A stretch of DNA of 52,133 nucleotides from a phage: sequence record OZ470597.1; one strand, written 5' to 3'. Under the pieces are notes generated by a model. That model worked only from the letters and a program-made list of their open reading frames with translations. It did not search any database and was not told the DNA's origin. Below, piece after piece: positions 8,980 to 20,460 of the stretch. The first letter of the stretch is position 1; the number at the start of each line of letters is the position of its first letter. Position numbers and translations under genes: made by a program.

Positions 8980-9367
8980 ATTAATGCTATCGGCGCGTAA
9001 GGCGCTGGCGACTGAATACGAGAGCAGATTCACGATCGCTTATGAAAACGTAGAGTTTACGCCACCTGGTGACGGTTCGCCGTGGTTGAAGTTTGACTAT
9101 GCCGAAGTTGACACAGAATACTTGTCATTGGATCGAAAATGCGTTTCATATATCGGAATGATTCAGGTTGGCATTGTTTTTCCACCAGGTTACGGAACTG
9201 ACAGGCCGCGCGTTCTAGCTAAAGAGATTGCGCAATTCTTTTACGATGGTAAAATGCTGGAGCATGGTTATATATATGAGGGTGCAAGAGTTCACAAGCC
9301 GCTCAAGAGTGAAAGCGGTTGGATTCTCCCAATAAGGTTTTATGTTCGAATTGAAACAAAGGAGTAA
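8969..9367 (+). CDS. putative tail terminator protein (lambda U-like by size and position)
   Basis: 132 aa immediately upstream of the major tail protein gene. Confidence 0.45.
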   Translation: MHYELMLSARKALATEYESRFTIAYENVEFTPPGDGSPWLKFDYAEVDTEYLSLDRKCVSYIGMIQVGIVFPPGYGTDRPRVLAKEIAQFFYDGKMLEHGYIYEGARVHKPLKSESGWILPIRFYVRIETKE

Positions 9368-9372
9368 AAATT

Positions 9373-10035
9373 ATGCATTTACCAAATGGATCGCAAATTT
9401 TCGTTGAGAGCAATCGCGGAAGCGCTATTGAGGCAACGGCAGTATCAAACGCTAAAGATCCTGTATTCACCGTTGCATCTGGCGGTACTGCGTACAAGAA
9501 AGGTGATTATGTTATCATCACTGCGTCCTCCTGGGGCAAGCTGATTAATCGTGTTATGCGTGTAAAGACTAACGGTGAAGATACAAGCGTAACTCTTGAA
9601 GGTGTAGATACTACTGATCAGAACGTGTTCCCGACTGGCGGCACTGCATCTTTTGCCAAGATTGATGCATGGACTGAGATCCCTTGCGTTCAGGATTTGT
9701 CGCAGGACGGCGGAGAACAGCAATATTACACTTATCAGTGTTTGGCTGACGACCAGGAGCAGCAGTTACCTACCTATAAGAGCGCGGTTTCTCTTACCTA
9801 CACTTTTGCGCACGAATACGATAACGCGATCTATCCGTTACTTCGTGCAGCAGACGAATCCGGTGAAGTAACGGCGCTTCGCATGTATGTACCAAAAGCA
9901 AAAGAGATGCGTTGCTGGGCTGGTGTCCTTTCGTTTAACGAGATCCCACAAACGACCGTTAACGAAATGGAAACTGTTTCCCTGTCTGTATCCCTGAAAG
10001 GTCGATTCACCTTCCTACCTTCTCAAGTAGCATAA
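9373..10035 (+). CDS. major tail (tube) protein
   Basis: 220 aa, AAAGGAG RBS, followed by strong terminator and then the chaperone/tape-measure genes. Confidence 0.6.
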   Translation: MHLPNGSQIFVESNRGSAIEATAVSNAKDPVFTVASGGTAYKKGDYVIITASSWGKLINRVMRVKTNGEDTSVTLEGVDTTDQNVFPTGGTASFAKIDAWTEIPCVQDLSQDGGEQQYYTYQCLADDQEQQLPTYKSAVSLTYTFAHEYDNAIYPLLRAADESGEVTALRMYVPKAKEMRCWAGVLSFNEIPQTTVNEMETVSLSVSLKGRFTFLPSQVA

Positions 10036-10040
10036 TCACA

Positions 10041-10063
10041 AGGGGCGTTGCGCCCCTTTTTTT
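10041..10063 (+). terminator. intrinsic terminator after major tail gene
   Basis: AGGGGCG...CGCCCCT hairpin followed by TTTTTTT. Confidence 0.7.
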
Positions 10064-10101
10064 GTTACTGTACAATCATGCTACACGATTCATAATCAAT
10101 T

Positions 10102-10121
10102 CTTTTAACAAAAAGTGCTAT
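10102..10121 (+). promoter_or_regulatory. conserved element copy (reverse orientation) upstream of tail chaperone gene
   Basis: cttttaacaaaaagtgctat between terminator 10041-10063 and RBS of gene 10135. Confidence 0.35.
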
Positions 10122-10134
10122 CAAGGAGAAAGAA

Positions 10135-10452
10135 ATGTCAAAAATGAAATTGACGATTGGGCCGCTTCCTGACTTTAAATTACCAGTGAAATTTGCAATG
10201 CCTAACGGAGAAGATCAAACAATTATCTTCACAGTTCGCCACCGCAAAACAAGTGAGATTCACGAGCGCTACACGTCAGATACTCCAATGAGCGATGTTG
10301 AAATGATTACCTTCCTTGCTTCCGGTTGGAATCTTGATGATGAATTTAACGAAGAAAATATTAAACAGCTTCTTGATTACTACCCAGCAACAGCAATCGG
10401 ATTAACTAGCGCATACATGAAAGCGCTTGCGGGGCAGCGAGTAAAAAACTAA
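10135..10452 (+). CDS. tail assembly chaperone (lambda G-like)
   Basis: 105 aa between major tail and tape measure genes; ends just after slippery heptamer A_AAA_AAC. Confidence 0.65.
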   Translation: MSKMKLTIGPLPDFKLPVKFAMPNGEDQTIIFTVRHRKTSEIHERYTSDTPMSDVEMITFLASGWNLDDEFNEENIKQLLDYYPATAIGLTSAYMKALAGQRVKN

Positions 10453-10763
10453 AAAGGGCGGTTTACCTGTTTTATCAGAAACCGCCGACAGATGCAGAGC
10501 TTGAGGCCGTTGGGCTTACAAGGGCAGACTATGAAGGAGAAGATCCGCCAGAGGTTATATTTGATGAAAGCATGATGCAATCATGGGATATATTTTGCGC
10601 AATGCAAACGCAATGGAGATGTTCTGGCGGTGGCGCTTACGGATTTGATTATAATGTCTTGCCTATGCTTTTTGAGATTTACAAGGTTGAGGATCGCGAG
10701 ATGGCGCTAAACGACTTGCGAATCATGGAGCAAAAAGCACTTGAAATGATGCATTCAAAATAA
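10135..10763 (+). CDS. tail assembly chaperone GT-like fusion made by programmed -1 frameshift (shift near 10443-10449)
   Basis: -1 frame is open from the slippery site to stop at 10761-10763; slippery AAAAAAC followed 7 nt later by an 8-bp stem (10457-10464/10479-10486). Confidence 0.5.
10443..10486 (+). promoter_or_regulatory. programmed -1 ribosomal frameshift site (slippery A_AAA_AAC plus downstream stem-loop)
   Basis: heptamer 10443-10449 in X_XXY_YYZ register of the G-like ORF; 8-bp stem GGCGGTTT/AAACCGCC at 10457-10464/10479-10486. Confidence 0.5.
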
Positions 10764-10785
10764 GCGCCTACGGGCGCTTTTTTAT
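10763..10785 (+). terminator. intrinsic terminator upstream of tape measure gene
   Basis: AGCGCC...GGCGCT hairpin followed by TTTTTT. Confidence 0.6.
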
Positions 10786-10802
10786 TACCTGGAGGATTAA
10801 TA

Positions 10803-13475
10803 ATGTCAGAACAATACGCAGGCTTGACGCTTGGGGTTGACGTTTCTCAACTCAACAATGCTGTAAAGTCTTTGCAGCAATTCAAGAAGGCAAACGACGA
10901 CGCAAAGGGAAGCATTGAGAGTTTTGTTGATTCAGAGGTTGTTGCAAGACAAAGAGCCAAACAACTGGCTGAGGAATTGGCAAAGCAGAAGCAAGAATTT
11001 AAAGCAATTCAGTCGGCAATAGATCCGACAGCAAGCAAAATGGATAAGTTGCGCCAGGCTGCAACACAGCTTGATGCGCTTTGGAAAAAAGGAATTGTGC
11101 CGGATGATACATTCTTTGAGTTAGGATCAATTCTTGAGACGCAGCAAAATAAACTGATCGCAACTAAAAAGGCGCTAACTGAAGAAGGCCGCGCGGCTCT
11201 TGAGGAAGCAAAAAATAAGGCAAGAGCAGAGGCTGAGGCAAGAAAGTTTATTGCGGCATTGCAGGCGCAAGCTGACGCAGCAGAAAAAACAAAGTCAGAG
11301 CTTGTCGAAATGAGAGCCGCACAACTTGGAGTTAGTGCAGAGGCCGCGCCATTTATTGCAAAAATGAAGGAGCAGGAAAAACAAGCCTCAAAACTTGGCG
11401 TTTCTATGGGGCAGTACAAGCAAGCAATGGCGCAATTGCCAATGCAGATCACTGACGTTGTTACTTCTCTTGCTTCAGGTATGCCAGTATGGATGATCGC
11501 AATCCAGCAGGGCGGGCAAATCAAGGACTCATTCGGCGGTGTTGCTAATACGTTTAAAGCGCTAATGACATTTGTCACGCCTTTAAGTGTAGGAATGACG
11601 GCGCTGACTGGTGCTCTTGGTTATGCTGCATATAATGCATACAAAGCAAATGCACAACTGAAGGAGATCACAAAAACCGTTCAGGAGGCAACTGGTCTTT
11701 CTGGTGATTTTGCGGAGCGGATTGCAACTGGAATCCAGGCGCTATCTGACAAGACAGGTGAGAGCGCCGATAATCTGGCAAAGGCATACATAAGCACTAA
11801 GGATGGAGCAACCGAGGCCATACAAAAACTCGTCGATGTTGGGTTTACCTATGACGAAGCAAAGGTAAAGGTAAACGAATACAAGAATGCGTCAAGTTTT
11901 GTAAGTCTCAACAATGAGATTGCTGATCACAAAAACAAGGTTCTTGAGCTTGGAGATTCGTGGTATGAAGTCTTAAAAGCGAAGAATGATTATGCTTCAC
12001 CGTCCGGCGGGCTGTTGGGGAAAGAGCTTGGTTATGTAAATCCTATGTTGCAATTTGCGAAGAACACCTATGAGGATATAGGGAAGATCGTAAAAGATGC
12101 GAATAAGGATATGGCGGAACGAGCAGCACGCATCGACAGAGAAAATCTTTCCTTAAACAGAGTTCGAGCGGCGCAAGAGGCTTTAAACAAAGCCATAGAG
12201 GATCAGAAAAATGTAGCAAGGACAGCAGACGAAGAGTTGAAAAAACGAGCAGCCGAGAACGTTGAGTTCAGGCGAAAAGAGCTTGAAGAGGCGAAGAAGG
12301 CACAGCAGCAAAAGGAGAAAGTTGGCGGAGTTGTAAAAGCACCAACAGAGCAGCTTGATAAGGAGCTATATGTTCTCAAGGCGCAACTTGAAACGCTGAA
12401 AGAGCACCGAACTGTAAATGATGTTATTTCACGCCAGAGGCAATCTTTGTGGAGTGTTGAAAAGCAGATCCAGATCCTGGAGGAAGCGCAAAGCAAGCGT
12501 AAGCTGACAAGAGCGGAACAAGCGTTACTTAACGAGCAAAAAGCTGTTCTTGCTATGGCAAAAGAAAAGGCAGAGATAGGCGATCAGATTGTTTTGCAAC
12601 AGAGAAAGAATAAGCAATACCAAGAAGGGCTTAAATTCATTCAGCAAACATCAGATGCTATTGACGCTATGAACTTGCGACAGTCTGGAGCTACAGATCT
12701 GCAAATCCAGCGAGAGCTTGAGTTGAAGAAGTTGCGAACTGATTATGTTGCTGGCGGCGGTAGTATCGACGATGAAATTTATCAGCAGATGGAAGCAAAG
12801 CTAAAGGAGTATTACGCAACTGAGGATCAACTTAGAAATAACTGGATTGCAGGAGCAAAAAACGCATGGGAGGTTTACGGACAAGATGCAATGGATATGT
12901 ACGGCAACGTGCAAGATATTGCAAGCGAGGCGCTCAACGGTCTAACCAACCAAATGGCTACATTCCTTGCAACAGGCAAGGCAAACTTTAAGAGCTTCGC
13001 AACGTCAATCATCCAAATGATTATCCAGATGATCACGAAGATGGTTATCTTTAATGCCATATCTGGTGCGATTGGAGGTGACACTTGGACGATTGGAAGC
13101 CTTCTTAAAAATGTTGGATTTGCAACTGGTGGATACACTGGCGACGGCGGGAAGTATGAGCCAGCAGGTGTTGTTCATAAAGGCGAGTTTGTCATGACGA
13201 AGGAGGCCACGAAGCGGATCGGAGTTGGAAACCTTTACAAAATGATGCGCGGTTATGCAAATGGCGGCGTTGTTGGCGGCACTTCATACACTGGCGGCGG
13301 CGTTTCATCAGGAGCAACAAACCTTAATATTGGTGGGATTAGCGTTGATATTAACAACGGAAACGATCCGAAGGGGTTAGAGACTGGCGTAAAAATGATT
13401 TTCACTGATATGATTAAGCGTTCCTGTACGCAGGGTGGGGAAGTTTACGAATTTGTTATGTCTAAGCGGGGGTGA
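10803..13475 (+). CDS. tail tape measure protein
   Basis: 890 aa, coiled-coil-rich N-terminal half, hydrophobic segment, Gly-rich C-terminus; position after G/GT. Confidence 0.85.
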
Positions 13476-13828
13476 TAGTGAAACTTGAGCAATTCAAATG
13501 GTGCACGCAAACGCAAGGAGGCGGCGGCACTATGACCACATCAAATAACGACAGGGAAATCTCATTTGGTAATGGTTACACGCAGGTTGCGTCAGGAGGG
13601 TTTAACACTGTACGCAGGGAGTTTTCCATTGTCTATGTGGGTAATGATTACCGAGATGTTGTTGACTTCCTGAATGGTCACAGGTTGAAGCCGTTTTTAT
13701 GGTTTATGCCTGACGGTCAACCTGGTCTATTCAGGGTAAAATCTGGTAGCGTTGGGTTAACTCCAATATCAGCAACCGTTCAGGAAGTGAAAGCAACATT
13801 TACTGAGCAATTTACATCAATGCAATAA
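13472..13828 (+). CDS. minor tail protein (lambda M-like)
   Basis: FKW...[14 protein letters not shown] matches lambda M FRW...FGDGYSQRAPAGLN; GTG start overlapping tape-measure stop (alternative ATG 13532). Confidence 0.65.
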
Positions 13829-20454: not shown

Positions 20455-20460
20455 TTAAAA

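What the first reader, a model, noticed from the sequence alone, without database searches (positions are those of the whole stretch)
10443..10763. Programmed -1 frameshift in the tail assembly chaperone pair
The G-like ORF (10135-10452) ends just after a canonical slippery heptamer A_AAA_AAC at 10443-10449. Seven nt downstream is an 8-bp stem (GGCGGTTT at 10457-10464 pairing with AAACCGCC at 10479-10486). The -1 frame stays open from the slip site to 10763, so a G-T-like fusion would be made. This matches the conserved G/GT mechanism of long-tailed phages, but the site and structure here are read directly from the sequence.
Basis: partly seen in the sequence, partly recalled or inferred. Interest (0 to 1): 0.5.

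Follow-up and report, generated by a model that had tools for sequence, protein, structure and literature searches.

The report
Phage tail chaperone G/GT frameshift

Summary
These are the G ORF 10135-10452, an in-phase A_AAA_AAC at 10443-10449, the TAA at 10450-10452, a perfect 8-bp stem (10457-64 / 10479-86) 7 nt downstream, and a -1 frame open to 10763.

The window is a Hanrivervirus (Drexlerviridae, T1-like). The gene pair lies between the major tail tube and tape measure genes. G matches Pfam Phage_TAC_4 and the -1 extension matches DUF1799.

Comparison with about 90 distinct relatives supports a -1 frameshift at this heptamer:
- The three heptamer codons are almost frozen at synonymous sites.
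- The DNA right after the site evolves as coding sequence in the -1 frame, yet has no conserved start codon.
- In Dhillonvirus the frame overlap is only 10 nt, which pins the shift to the heptamer.

The hairpin is more stable than coding constraints explain (0 of 1000 synonymous recodings). It is limited to some clades and shows no real covariation, so a stimulatory role is plausible but unproven.

The frameshift is already reported for T1-like phages (Stevie, U136B, Solomon). It is annotated as a joined CDS at the homologous site in Stevie.

Verdict: supported, already known, low interest.

The parts
9373..10035 (+). Major tail tube protein gene (upstream neighbour, context)
   Evidence: Pfam PF08813 Phage_tail_3, E 2.9e-64; phrog_584 major tail protein
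10040..10066 (+). Terminator-like GC hairpin plus T-run between the tail tube gene and G (context)
   Evidence: Terminator scan, 8-bp stem with 6 GC pairs, then TTTTTGTT; a terminator is annotated at the same place in phage Stevie
10123..10128 (+). Shine-Dalgarno AAGGAG for G, 6 nt before the ATG
   Evidence: Read directly from the sequence
10135..10452 (+). G-like tail assembly (tape measure) chaperone ORF, 105 aa, 12.0 kDa, zero frame
   Evidence: ORF list; Pfam PF08748 Phage_TAC_4, E 1.8e-30, over residues 1-105; phrog_569 and phrog_17368; mass
10443..10449 (+). Slippery heptamer A_AAA_AAC in phase X_XXY_YYZ; the inferred -1 shift site
   Evidence: It is the only in-phase heptamer in the 43-nt overlap. 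It is conserved with an adjacent stop across most Drexlerviridae and Dhillonvirus. The identical-codon fraction among same-amino-acid pairs is 1.00/0.93/0.99 for G codons 103-105, against 0.48 overall.
10450..10452 (+). Zero-frame stop TAA directly after the heptamer
   Evidence: TAA or TGA sits at this position in all relatives that carry A_AAA_AAC
10457..10486 (+). RNA hairpin 7 nt 3' of the heptamer: 8-bp stem GGCGGUUU/AAACCGCC plus an inner CUG/CAG helix. Candidate frameshift stimulator.
   Evidence: MFE -15.1 kcal/mol, z -3.06; 0 of 1000 synonymous recodings of the T frame are as stable; positional rarity. It is absent in several lineages and has no convincing covariation.
10449..10763 (+). 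T segment, the -1 frame extension: 104 codons plus the TAA at 10761-10763. C10449 is read twice.
   Evidence: Pfam PF08809 DUF1799, E 3.5e-12, over GT residues 127-206; phrog_17368 positions 109-211 and phrog_680. Substitutions follow third-position periodicity in this frame, 0.23/0.17/0.57. The first start codon in this frame is ATG 10572.
10135..10763 (+). Predicted GT fusion product, join(10135..10449,10449..10763): 209 aa, 24.1 kDa, junction ...GQRVKN-LKRAVYL...
   Evidence: It is colinear with the 213-position phrog_17368. The homologous joined CDS is annotated in phage Stevie, KM236241 10144..10775, flag j2.
10762..10787 (+). Terminator-like hairpin plus T-run immediately after the T stop (context)
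   Evidence: Terminator scan; a terminator is annotated at the homologous place in Stevie
10803..13475 (+). Tape measure protein gene (downstream neighbour, context)
   Evidence: Pfam PF06791 TMP_2 and PF09718 Tape_meas_lam_C; phrog_24, E 7e-194

Best explanation
Ribosomes start at ATG 10135 and mostly terminate at TAA 10450, giving the 105-aa chaperone G. A minority slip back one nucleotide on A_AAA_AAC (10443-10449). In that slip, tRNA-Lys moves from AAA to AAA and tRNA-Asn from AAC to AAA. Those ribosomes continue in the -1 frame from C10449 to TAA 10761-10763 and produce a 209-aa GT fusion with the junction ...VKN-LKRAVYL....

By analogy with lambda gpG/gpGT, both forms would bind the tape measure protein encoded just downstream. 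The rare T domain would recruit the tail tube protein encoded just upstream. The frameshift frequency would then fix the G:GT ratio.

The GC-rich hairpin 7 nt downstream most likely pauses the ribosome over the heptamer and raises slippage on a heptamer that is only moderately shifty in E. coli.

Shown here: the anatomy, the protein families, conservation of the site, and -1 frame coding without a start codon. Inferred: that the shift occurs, its efficiency, the role of the hairpin, and the chaperone mechanism.
For: Position and identity:
- The pair lies between the tail tube gene (PF08813) and the tape measure gene (PF06791/PF09718). G matches PF08748 Phage_TAC_4 and T matches PF08809 DUF1799.
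- phrog_17368 is a single 213-position family that covers G and then T colinearly across the predicted junction.
- tblastn finds the G-then-T arrangement in 1144 phage records, and nearly all sampled rows match as two separate aligned pieces. The frame offset was confirmed directly in the loci analysed.

The shift site:
- Across about 90 distinct relatives the -1 extension is always 102-107 codons. A_AAA_AAC plus a stop is conserved in most Drexlerviridae genera and in Dhillonvirus.
- In Dhillonvirus the overlap is 10 nt, so the shift must occur inside the heptamer.
- Other lineages carry different known shifty motifs at the same spot: G_GGA_AAC, A_AAA_G and A_AAG.
- The heptamer codons are frozen at synonymous sites: 1.00/0.93/0.99 against 0.48 background.

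Translation in the -1 frame:
- T codons 2-31 vary 0.23/0.17/0.57 at codon positions 1/2/3 in the -1 frame.
- The first possible start codon ranges from codon 5 to codon 51 among lineages. It is codon 42 in the window.

The hairpin.

Precedent:
- Stevie annotates a joined CDS at the homologous site.
- Papers on T1-like phages state that the frameshift is conserved.
Against: - No experimental product is known for this phage or, as far as I could find, for T1 itself.
- None of the closest GenBank or RefSeq records annotates a joined CDS.
- In E. coli, A_AAA_AAC is much less shift-prone than A_AAA_AAG (review PMC5009743), so efficiency may be low.
- The hairpin is absent from Rogunavirinae-like and some other lineages that keep the same heptamer or protein motif.
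- On the full alignment, paired cells barely exceed the shuffled control (72.9% against 69.7%), and there is no clean compensatory change.
- The stem arms coincide with conserved Arg-Ala-Val and Pro-Pro codons.
Confidence: 0.9

Rival explanations
1. T is a separate small gene. A 63-aa protein would be initiated independently at ATG 10572, as several database records annotate it, and no fusion would be made.
For: An ATG-started ORF exists at 10572-10763. The homologous ORF is annotated as a stand-alone CDS in pSf-1, Henu8 and T1.
Against: - The 41 codons upstream of that ATG (10449-10571) are conserved as protein and show -1 frame third-position periodicity.
- The DUF1799 match starts about 20 residues before that Met.
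- The position of the first start codon is not conserved, ranging from codon 5 to codon 51.
- No Shine-Dalgarno sequence lies at the right distance before 10572.
- Annotators chose different internal starts in different phages.
Confidence: 0.04
2. The fusion arises by transcriptional slippage. RNA polymerase would add one extra A in the A6 run, so a subset of mRNAs carries G and T in one frame and is translated conventionally.
For: The site is a homopolymer run of six A. One inserted A would place T in frame. Two database sequences differ in run length, with A5 in IMGVR_UViG_2974632794_000001 and in HCF1.
Against: - Documented bacterial transcriptional slippage involves runs of about 9 A or T (review PMC5009743). 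Six is short.
- Related lineages replace the run with G_GGA_AAC, A_AAA_G or A_AAG. These keep tRNA re-pairing in the codon phase but not a long homopolymer.
- A hairpin 6-7 nt 3' of the site is the classic geometry of a ribosomal stimulator.
- The A5 variants would shift to the wrong frame, and they look like homopolymer sequencing errors.
Confidence: 0.04
3. The frameshift is real, but the hairpin is incidental. Slippage would depend only on the heptamer, and perhaps on the adjacent stop, as in lambda where no 3' structure is needed. The stem would be a by-product of the Arg-Ala-Val ... Pro-Pro coding sequence and shared ancestry.
For: - Several lineages with the same heptamer or the same KRAVYL...KPP motif lack any stable structure: L064, the L019 group, L012 and L091, with z about 0.
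- Covariation is not convincing.
- Synonymous conservation in the arm codons is unremarkable, except for the first Pro codon at 0.79.
Against: - In the window, 0 of 1000 synonymous recodings reach -15.1 kcal/mol.
- 16 of 32 representative lineages, which are not independent, have p < 0.05 in that test. They include distant Dhillonvirus, which has different arm sequences but the same 7-nt spacing.
- The Arg codon is AGG or CGG, which keeps the GG needed for pairing. These are minority Arg codons in this phage: 30 of 126.
- Positional chance is about 0.3%.
Confidence: 0.4

Closest known systems
Bacteriophage lambda gpG/gpGT tail assembly chaperones (Levin, Hendrix & Casjens 1993; Xu, Hendrix & Duda 2004, 2013, 2014, as summarised in PMC5009743)
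   Same: There are two overlapping ORFs between the major tail and tape measure genes. A -1 shift near the 3' end of G gives a G-T fusion, and the arrangement is a conserved feature of long-tailed phages.
   Different: - From my own knowledge, the lambda slip site is G_GGA_AAG and needs no downstream structure. Here the site is A_AAA_AAC, abutting the stop, with a hairpin 7 nt downstream.
- The sequence families differ. This pair matches PF08748 and PF08809 and gives no Pfam hit to any other chaperone family.
Tape measure chaperone pair of T1-like phages, e.g. Citrobacter phage Stevie (KM236241, Tlsvirus, same subfamily Tempevirinae), E. coli phage U136B, Klebsiella phage Solomon
   Same: The genes are homologous and sit at the same position with the same heptamer and stop. 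Stevie's record carries a joined CDS 10144..10775 whose length fits a -1 shift at the homologous site. The papers state that the frameshift is conserved.
   Different: Nothing essential. The window's closest relatives (vojen, haarsle, damhaus, pSf-1, Henu8) simply lack the joined annotation.
E. coli dnaX gamma/tau -1 frameshift cassette
   Same: It has an A-rich heptamer followed after a short spacer by a stable stem-loop that stimulates slippage (the spacing is from my own knowledge).
   Different: - dnaX uses A_AAA_AAG, which is far shiftier than A_AAA_AAC in E. coli.
- dnaX has an upstream Shine-Dalgarno-like stimulator and about 50% efficiency. Here no upstream SD-like element is conserved: G codons 99-102 show low synonymous conservation, and T1 has GCCGGACAC there.
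- There is no Rfam match.
g-t frameshift of haloarchaeal virus HCTV-2, and IS1 insAB' (A6C; the latter from my own knowledge)
   Same: They use the same A_AAA_AAC heptamer for a low-level -1 shift (HCTV-2).
   Different: The hosts and genes are unrelated. The IS1 product is a transposase.

Membership tests
G/GT-type tail assembly chaperone with programmed frameshift (Xu, Hendrix & Duda 2004) | Two ORFs located between the major tail protein gene and the tape measure protein gene | tested here: met
   The order is 9373-10035 (PF08813), 10135-10452, 10449-10763, then 10803-13475 (PF06791/PF09718)
G/GT-type tail assembly chaperone with programmed frameshift (Xu, Hendrix & Duda 2004) | The second ORF overlaps the end of the first in the -1 frame and lacks its own conserved start | tested here: met
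   The overlap spans 10410-10452. The first start codon in the -1 frame is codon 42 here and ranges from 5 to 51 in relatives.
G/GT-type tail assembly chaperone with programmed frameshift (Xu, Hendrix & Duda 2004) | A slippery sequence in the correct phase inside the overlap, conserved among relatives | tested here: met
   A_AAA_AAC is the only in-phase heptamer in the overlap. It is conserved or replaced by other shifty motifs. Synonymous conservation is 1.00/0.93/0.99.
G/GT-type tail assembly chaperone with programmed frameshift (Xu, Hendrix & Duda 2004) | The downstream segment is under purifying selection in the shifted frame | tested here: met
   Codon-position variability is 0.23/0.17/0.57 in the -1 frame for T codons 2-31; protein alignment
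G/GT-type tail assembly chaperone with programmed frameshift (Xu, Hendrix & Duda 2004) | The fusion protein is actually produced at a low fixed ratio and is needed for tail assembly | not testable with these tools
   This needs a western blot or mass spectrometry of infected cells, plus genetics
Pfam PF08748 Phage_TAC_4 (G part) and PF08809 DUF1799 (T part) | Score above the curated gathering threshold | tested here: met
   106.2 bits against a cut-off of 21.1, and 46.8 bits against a cut-off of 26
Lambda gpG / gpT sequence families | Detectable sequence homology to lambda gpG or gpT profiles | tested here: not met
   The Pfam scan at E <= 0.01 returned only PF08748 and PF08809. The pair works like lambda G/GT but does not belong to the same sequence family at this sensitivity.
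dnaX-type frameshift cassette | A_AAA_AAG heptamer, a 3' stem-loop and a 5' Shine-Dalgarno-like stimulator | tested here: not met
   The heptamer ends in C. A 3' stem-loop is present. No upstream SD-like element is conserved. There is no Rfam hit.
Structured 3' frameshift stimulator (generic) | Base pairs supported by covariation across relatives | tested here: inconclusive
   72.9% of cells are paired against 69.7% when shuffled, and changes on both sides occur mainly in lineages that have lost the helix. However, stability is far beyond synonymous recodings in about half of the lineages.

The most novel reading that the evidence does not exclude
In one large clade of T1-like phages (Tempevirinae and Tunavirinae), and convergently in Dhillonvirus, the G/GT frameshift may not be lambda-like and structure-independent. 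It may instead depend on a dnaX-like hairpin 6-7 nt downstream that compensates for the weak A_AAA_AAC heptamer. Sister lineages (Rogunavirinae-like, Webervirus) that lost the hairpin would reach the needed G:GT ratio through other shifty motifs (A_AAG, A_AAA_G) or accept a lower rate. That would be a natural series for studying how frameshift efficiency is tuned.
Probability: 0.45. Interest if true: 0.25.

Novelty: already known. Interest (0 to 1): 0.1.

Why it matters
The main value is for annotation. In the closest GenBank and RefSeq genomes the GT fusion is missing. The T part is either not called or is called as a truncated 63-aa ORF, and the chaperone genes are mislabelled 'tail length tape measure protein'. 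Correcting this gives the right proteome for a widely used group of coliphages.

The biology is the textbook G/GT mechanism and holds no surprise. The only mildly interesting point is the clade-limited downstream hairpin, which could be used to study how frameshift efficiency is tuned.

Tried and rejected
- **Upstream SD-like stimulator.** GGGG at 10432-10435 is not conserved; T1 has GCCGGACAC there, and synonymous conservation of G codons 99-102 is low. Rejected.
- **Alternative slip site G_GGG at 10431-10434.** It is not conserved in relatives. Rejected.
- **Readthrough of TAA into the zero frame.** That frame stays open for 39 more codons, but substitutions there peak at codon position 2 of that phase. 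Rejected.
- **+1 frame.** Only 17 codons are open. Rejected.
- **Hairpin as an intrinsic terminator.** No T-run follows it, and the terminator scan did not call it. Rejected.
- **Rfam search of 10000-10900.** Only sub-threshold chance matches appeared.
- **PDB sequence search and NCBIfam with GT.** Nothing was found.
- **The search for related loci with the 14-sequence G alignment.** It failed for lack of a conserved stretch. A 9-sequence alignment worked.
- **Literature.** The Xu et al. 2004 Mol Cell paper is not held. Two literature searches failed on term syntax. A title search for a paper on tetra- and hepta-nucleotide frameshift motifs in E. coli found nothing. Two Drexlerviridae papers mentioning 'frameshift' were irrelevant. 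Sugarland turned out to be T5-like with no frameshift signal.
- **Not done.** I did not run the large protein searches or structure prediction, because they would not change the verdict.

Full report
**1. The observation**

Reading 9900-11000 and translating all frames confirms every coordinate in the finding.
- The ORF 10135-10452 (ATG, 105 aa) follows an AAGGAG Shine-Dalgarno at 10123-10128. It ends ...CGA GTA AAA AAC TAA.
- AAAAAAC at 10443-10449 therefore lies in the phase X_XXY_YYZ, and the zero-frame stop follows directly at 10450-10452.
- GGCGGTTT (10457-10464) is the exact reverse complement of AAACCGCC (10479-10486). The spacer between heptamer and stem is 7 nt.
- The -1 frame is open from the TAG at 10407 to the TAA at 10761-10763. 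A -1 shift on the heptamer would add 104 residues and give a 209-aa, 24.1-kDa product, against 12.0 kDa for G alone.

**2. Is it more than chance?**

- The heptamer alone is not unusual. The window holds 20 copies on both strands, against 21.5 expected from shuffles.
- The context is what is unusual. Among 42 in-phase X_XXY_YYZ sites in ORFs of at least 100 aa, the median -1 extension is 7 codons. This site gives 104.
- Perfect 8-bp hairpins with 3-20 nt loops start at 30 of 52,133 positions. That puts the chance of one starting 5-9 nt after a given site at about 0.3%. This is the only +-strand AAAAAAC with one.
- The hairpin, with an inner CUG/CAG helix, folds at -15.1 kcal/mol. Its z-score is -3.06 against dinucleotide shuffles.

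**3. What the locus is**

- The window is 98% identical over 9300-13500 to Escherichia phage vojen. It is 96-98% identical to other Hanrivervirus genomes in Drexlerviridae, Tempevirinae, the T1-like phages.
- The pair sits between the tail tube gene (9373-10035, PF08813) and the tape measure gene (10803-13475, PF06791 plus PF09718).
- G matches PF08748 Phage_TAC_4 (E 1.8e-30). The -1 extension matches PF08809 DUF1799 (E 3.5e-12).
- In PHROGs, phrog_17368 is a 213-position family. G aligns to its positions 1-107 and the T segment to positions 109-211. Fused proteins with this junction therefore already exist among annotated phage proteins.

**4. Comparative evidence for the shift**

- A tblastn search with the predicted fusion finds 1144 phage records, and 1077 of them cover at least 80% of the query. 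Nearly all sampled rows match as two separate aligned pieces. I confirmed the frame offset directly in the loci I fetched.
- I collected about 90 distinct G-T loci from GenBank phages and IMG/VR.
- In every intact locus the -1 extension is 102-107 codons and the +1 frame closes quickly.
- A_AAA_AAC followed directly by TAA or TGA is present in Hanrivervirus, Warwickvirus, Tlsvirus, Tunavirus (T1 itself), Badaguanvirus, many uncultured relatives and Dhillonvirus.
- In Dhillonvirus (SO-1, Psq-1) a TGA in the -1 frame lies 10 nt before the G stop. The shift can therefore only happen within A_AAA_AAC.
- Other lineages carry different, equally recognisable shifty motifs at the same place. These are G_GGA_AAC (Ralstonia phages), A_AAA_G (Webervirus) and A_AAG (Rogunavirus, Serratia Smarc4, Pectobacterium Ymer).
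- Among 27 representatives less than 93% identical in DNA, same-amino-acid pairs use the identical codon 48% of the time overall. For G codons 103, 104 and 105 (GTA, AAA, AAC) the figures are 100%, 93% and 99%. Whatever residue occupies position 103, its third base matches the X of the heptamer.
- The T-frame protein is conserved from its first codon, LKRAVYL....
- T codons 2-31 show pairwise differences of 0.23/0.17/0.57 at codon positions 1/2/3 in the -1 frame. That is the signature of translation in that frame.
- The first ATG, GTG or TTG in that frame falls anywhere from codon 5 to codon 51 depending on lineage. In the window it is codon 42, at ATG 10572.
- The DUF1799 match begins about 20 residues before that Met.
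- Independent initiation therefore cannot explain the conserved first 41 codons.

**5. The hairpin**

- I held the T-frame protein fixed and redrew synonymous codons from this phage's own usage. None of 1000 recodings reaches the observed -15.1 kcal/mol (mean -5.5, sd 2.6).
- The same test gives p <= 0.005 in the Warwickvirus, Badaguanvirus, T1, Tlsvirus and related lineages. Their stems vary slightly: G-U pairs, an extra G-C at the base, and a 3- or 4-bp inner helix.
- It gives p about 0.03 in Dhillonvirus, whose arms differ (GGCGGCG/CGCCGCC) but start at the same 7-nt spacing.
- Limits on this evidence:
  - Rogunavirinae-like lineages, the L019 group, L012 and L091 have no significant structure. 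Neither does L064, even though it encodes the same KRAVYLFYQKPP motif.
  - On the 47-sequence alignment, 72.9% of cells pair against 69.7% in the column shuffle. Changes on both sides occur mostly where the helix is otherwise broken.
  - The arms coincide with Arg-Ala-Val and Pro-Pro codons. Only the first Pro codon shows raised synonymous conservation, at 0.79.
- I conclude that the hairpin is a real, clade-limited feature in the right place for a stimulator. Its function is inferred, not shown.
- No upstream Shine-Dalgarno-like stimulator is conserved.
- Rfam has no matching family.

**6. Mechanism**

- The best reading is canonical tandem -1 slippage, with tRNA-Lys moving from AAA to AAA and tRNA-Asn from AAC to AAA. 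Decoding then continues at CUA (Leu).
[quoted passage not shown] A weaker heptamer fits a product needed in small amounts.
- The same review gives a lambda G:GT ratio of about 30:1 and notes that neither product is in virions.
- The function of G and GT is carried over from lambda. It is not tested here.

**7. Rivals**

- Independent initiation at ATG 10572 is contradicted by point 4.
- Transcriptional slippage on A6 is unlikely for three reasons:
  - Documented bacterial cases use runs of about nine.
  - Related lineages replace the run by motifs that preserve tRNA re-pairing but not a homopolymer.
  - The 3' hairpin geometry is that of a ribosomal stimulator.
- An incidental hairpin remains a serious possibility, at about 0.4.

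**8. Comparison with what is known, and novelty**

- This is the G/GT frameshift of long-tailed phages.
- For T1-like phages it is already in the literature. [quoted passage not shown] U136B (PMC8104045) and Solomon (PMC8407766) report it too.
- Stevie belongs to the same subfamily. Its GenBank record carries a joined CDS 10144..10775. That is 632 nt, which makes 211 codons once one base is read twice, and it lies at the homologous heptamer.
- At the sequence level the pair belongs to PF08748/PF08809 and not to the lambda families. It works like lambda G/GT without belonging to the same sequence family.
- The closest relatives of the window do not annotate the fusion. They call either no T ORF or a truncated one.
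- Verdict: the finding is correct, ordinary and already known. Its value is in annotation.

Noticed in passing
window 10105-10121, plus 14 further copies (6345, 20772, 38206, 39351, 41894, 42400, 43276 on +; 29550, 32068, 33088, 44618, 45082, 47286, 49971 on -): A repeat of about 21 nt, TTTTAACAAAAAGTGCTATTT, occurs 15 times with at most 2 mismatches, against 0.01 expected. One copy lies just upstream of the G gene's ribosome binding site. It probably corresponds to the 22-bp repeats annotated in phage Stevie, whose role the Stevie paper calls unknown (it compares them to L5 stoperators).
   Followed up: partly
window 10040-10066 and 10762-10787: Terminator-like GC hairpins with T-runs bracket the G-T unit: one after the tail tube gene, one directly after the T stop and before the tape measure gene. 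Related copies lie at 20458, 23344 and 23847. They may set the transcript ratios of tube, chaperone and tape measure genes.
   Followed up: partly
L006/L030 (IMGVR_UViG_2974632794_000001) around locus position 1809; L017 (Citrobacter phage HCF1, NC_054897.1) locus 690-710: Two deposited genomes have A5 instead of A6 in the slippery run. HCF1 also lacks one more base about 20 nt upstream. This changes the G reading frame and would make the normal -1 route to T impossible. The variants are most likely homopolymer sequencing errors, but they are not verified.
   Followed up: partly
L001-L003, L014, L021 (RefSeq and GenBank records of vojen, Henu8, pSf-1, T1, VAC7): The chaperone genes are labelled 'tail length tape measure protein' in RefSeq. 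The T part is missing or called from arbitrary internal starts; in VAC7 it is split into two tiny ORFs. These are systematic annotation errors for this family.
   Followed up: yes
L020, L021, L092-L107 (Webervirus); L018, L067-L073 (Rogunavirus): These lineages have replaced A_AAA_AAC-stop with GCA AAA GTT TAA or GCA AAG GTC TAA. The likely shift site becomes a single-tRNA A_AAA or A_AAG slip one codon before the stop, and the GGCGG/CCGCC hairpin is absent. Webervirus has a weaker GGGCUG/CAGCCU stem instead.
   Followed up: partly
window 13472-13828: The ORF after the tape measure gene starts at a GTG that overlaps the tape measure stop (13472-13475). Relatives annotate this minor tail protein with different starts (vojen 297 nt, pSf-1 351 nt), so the true start is uncertain.
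   Followed up: no
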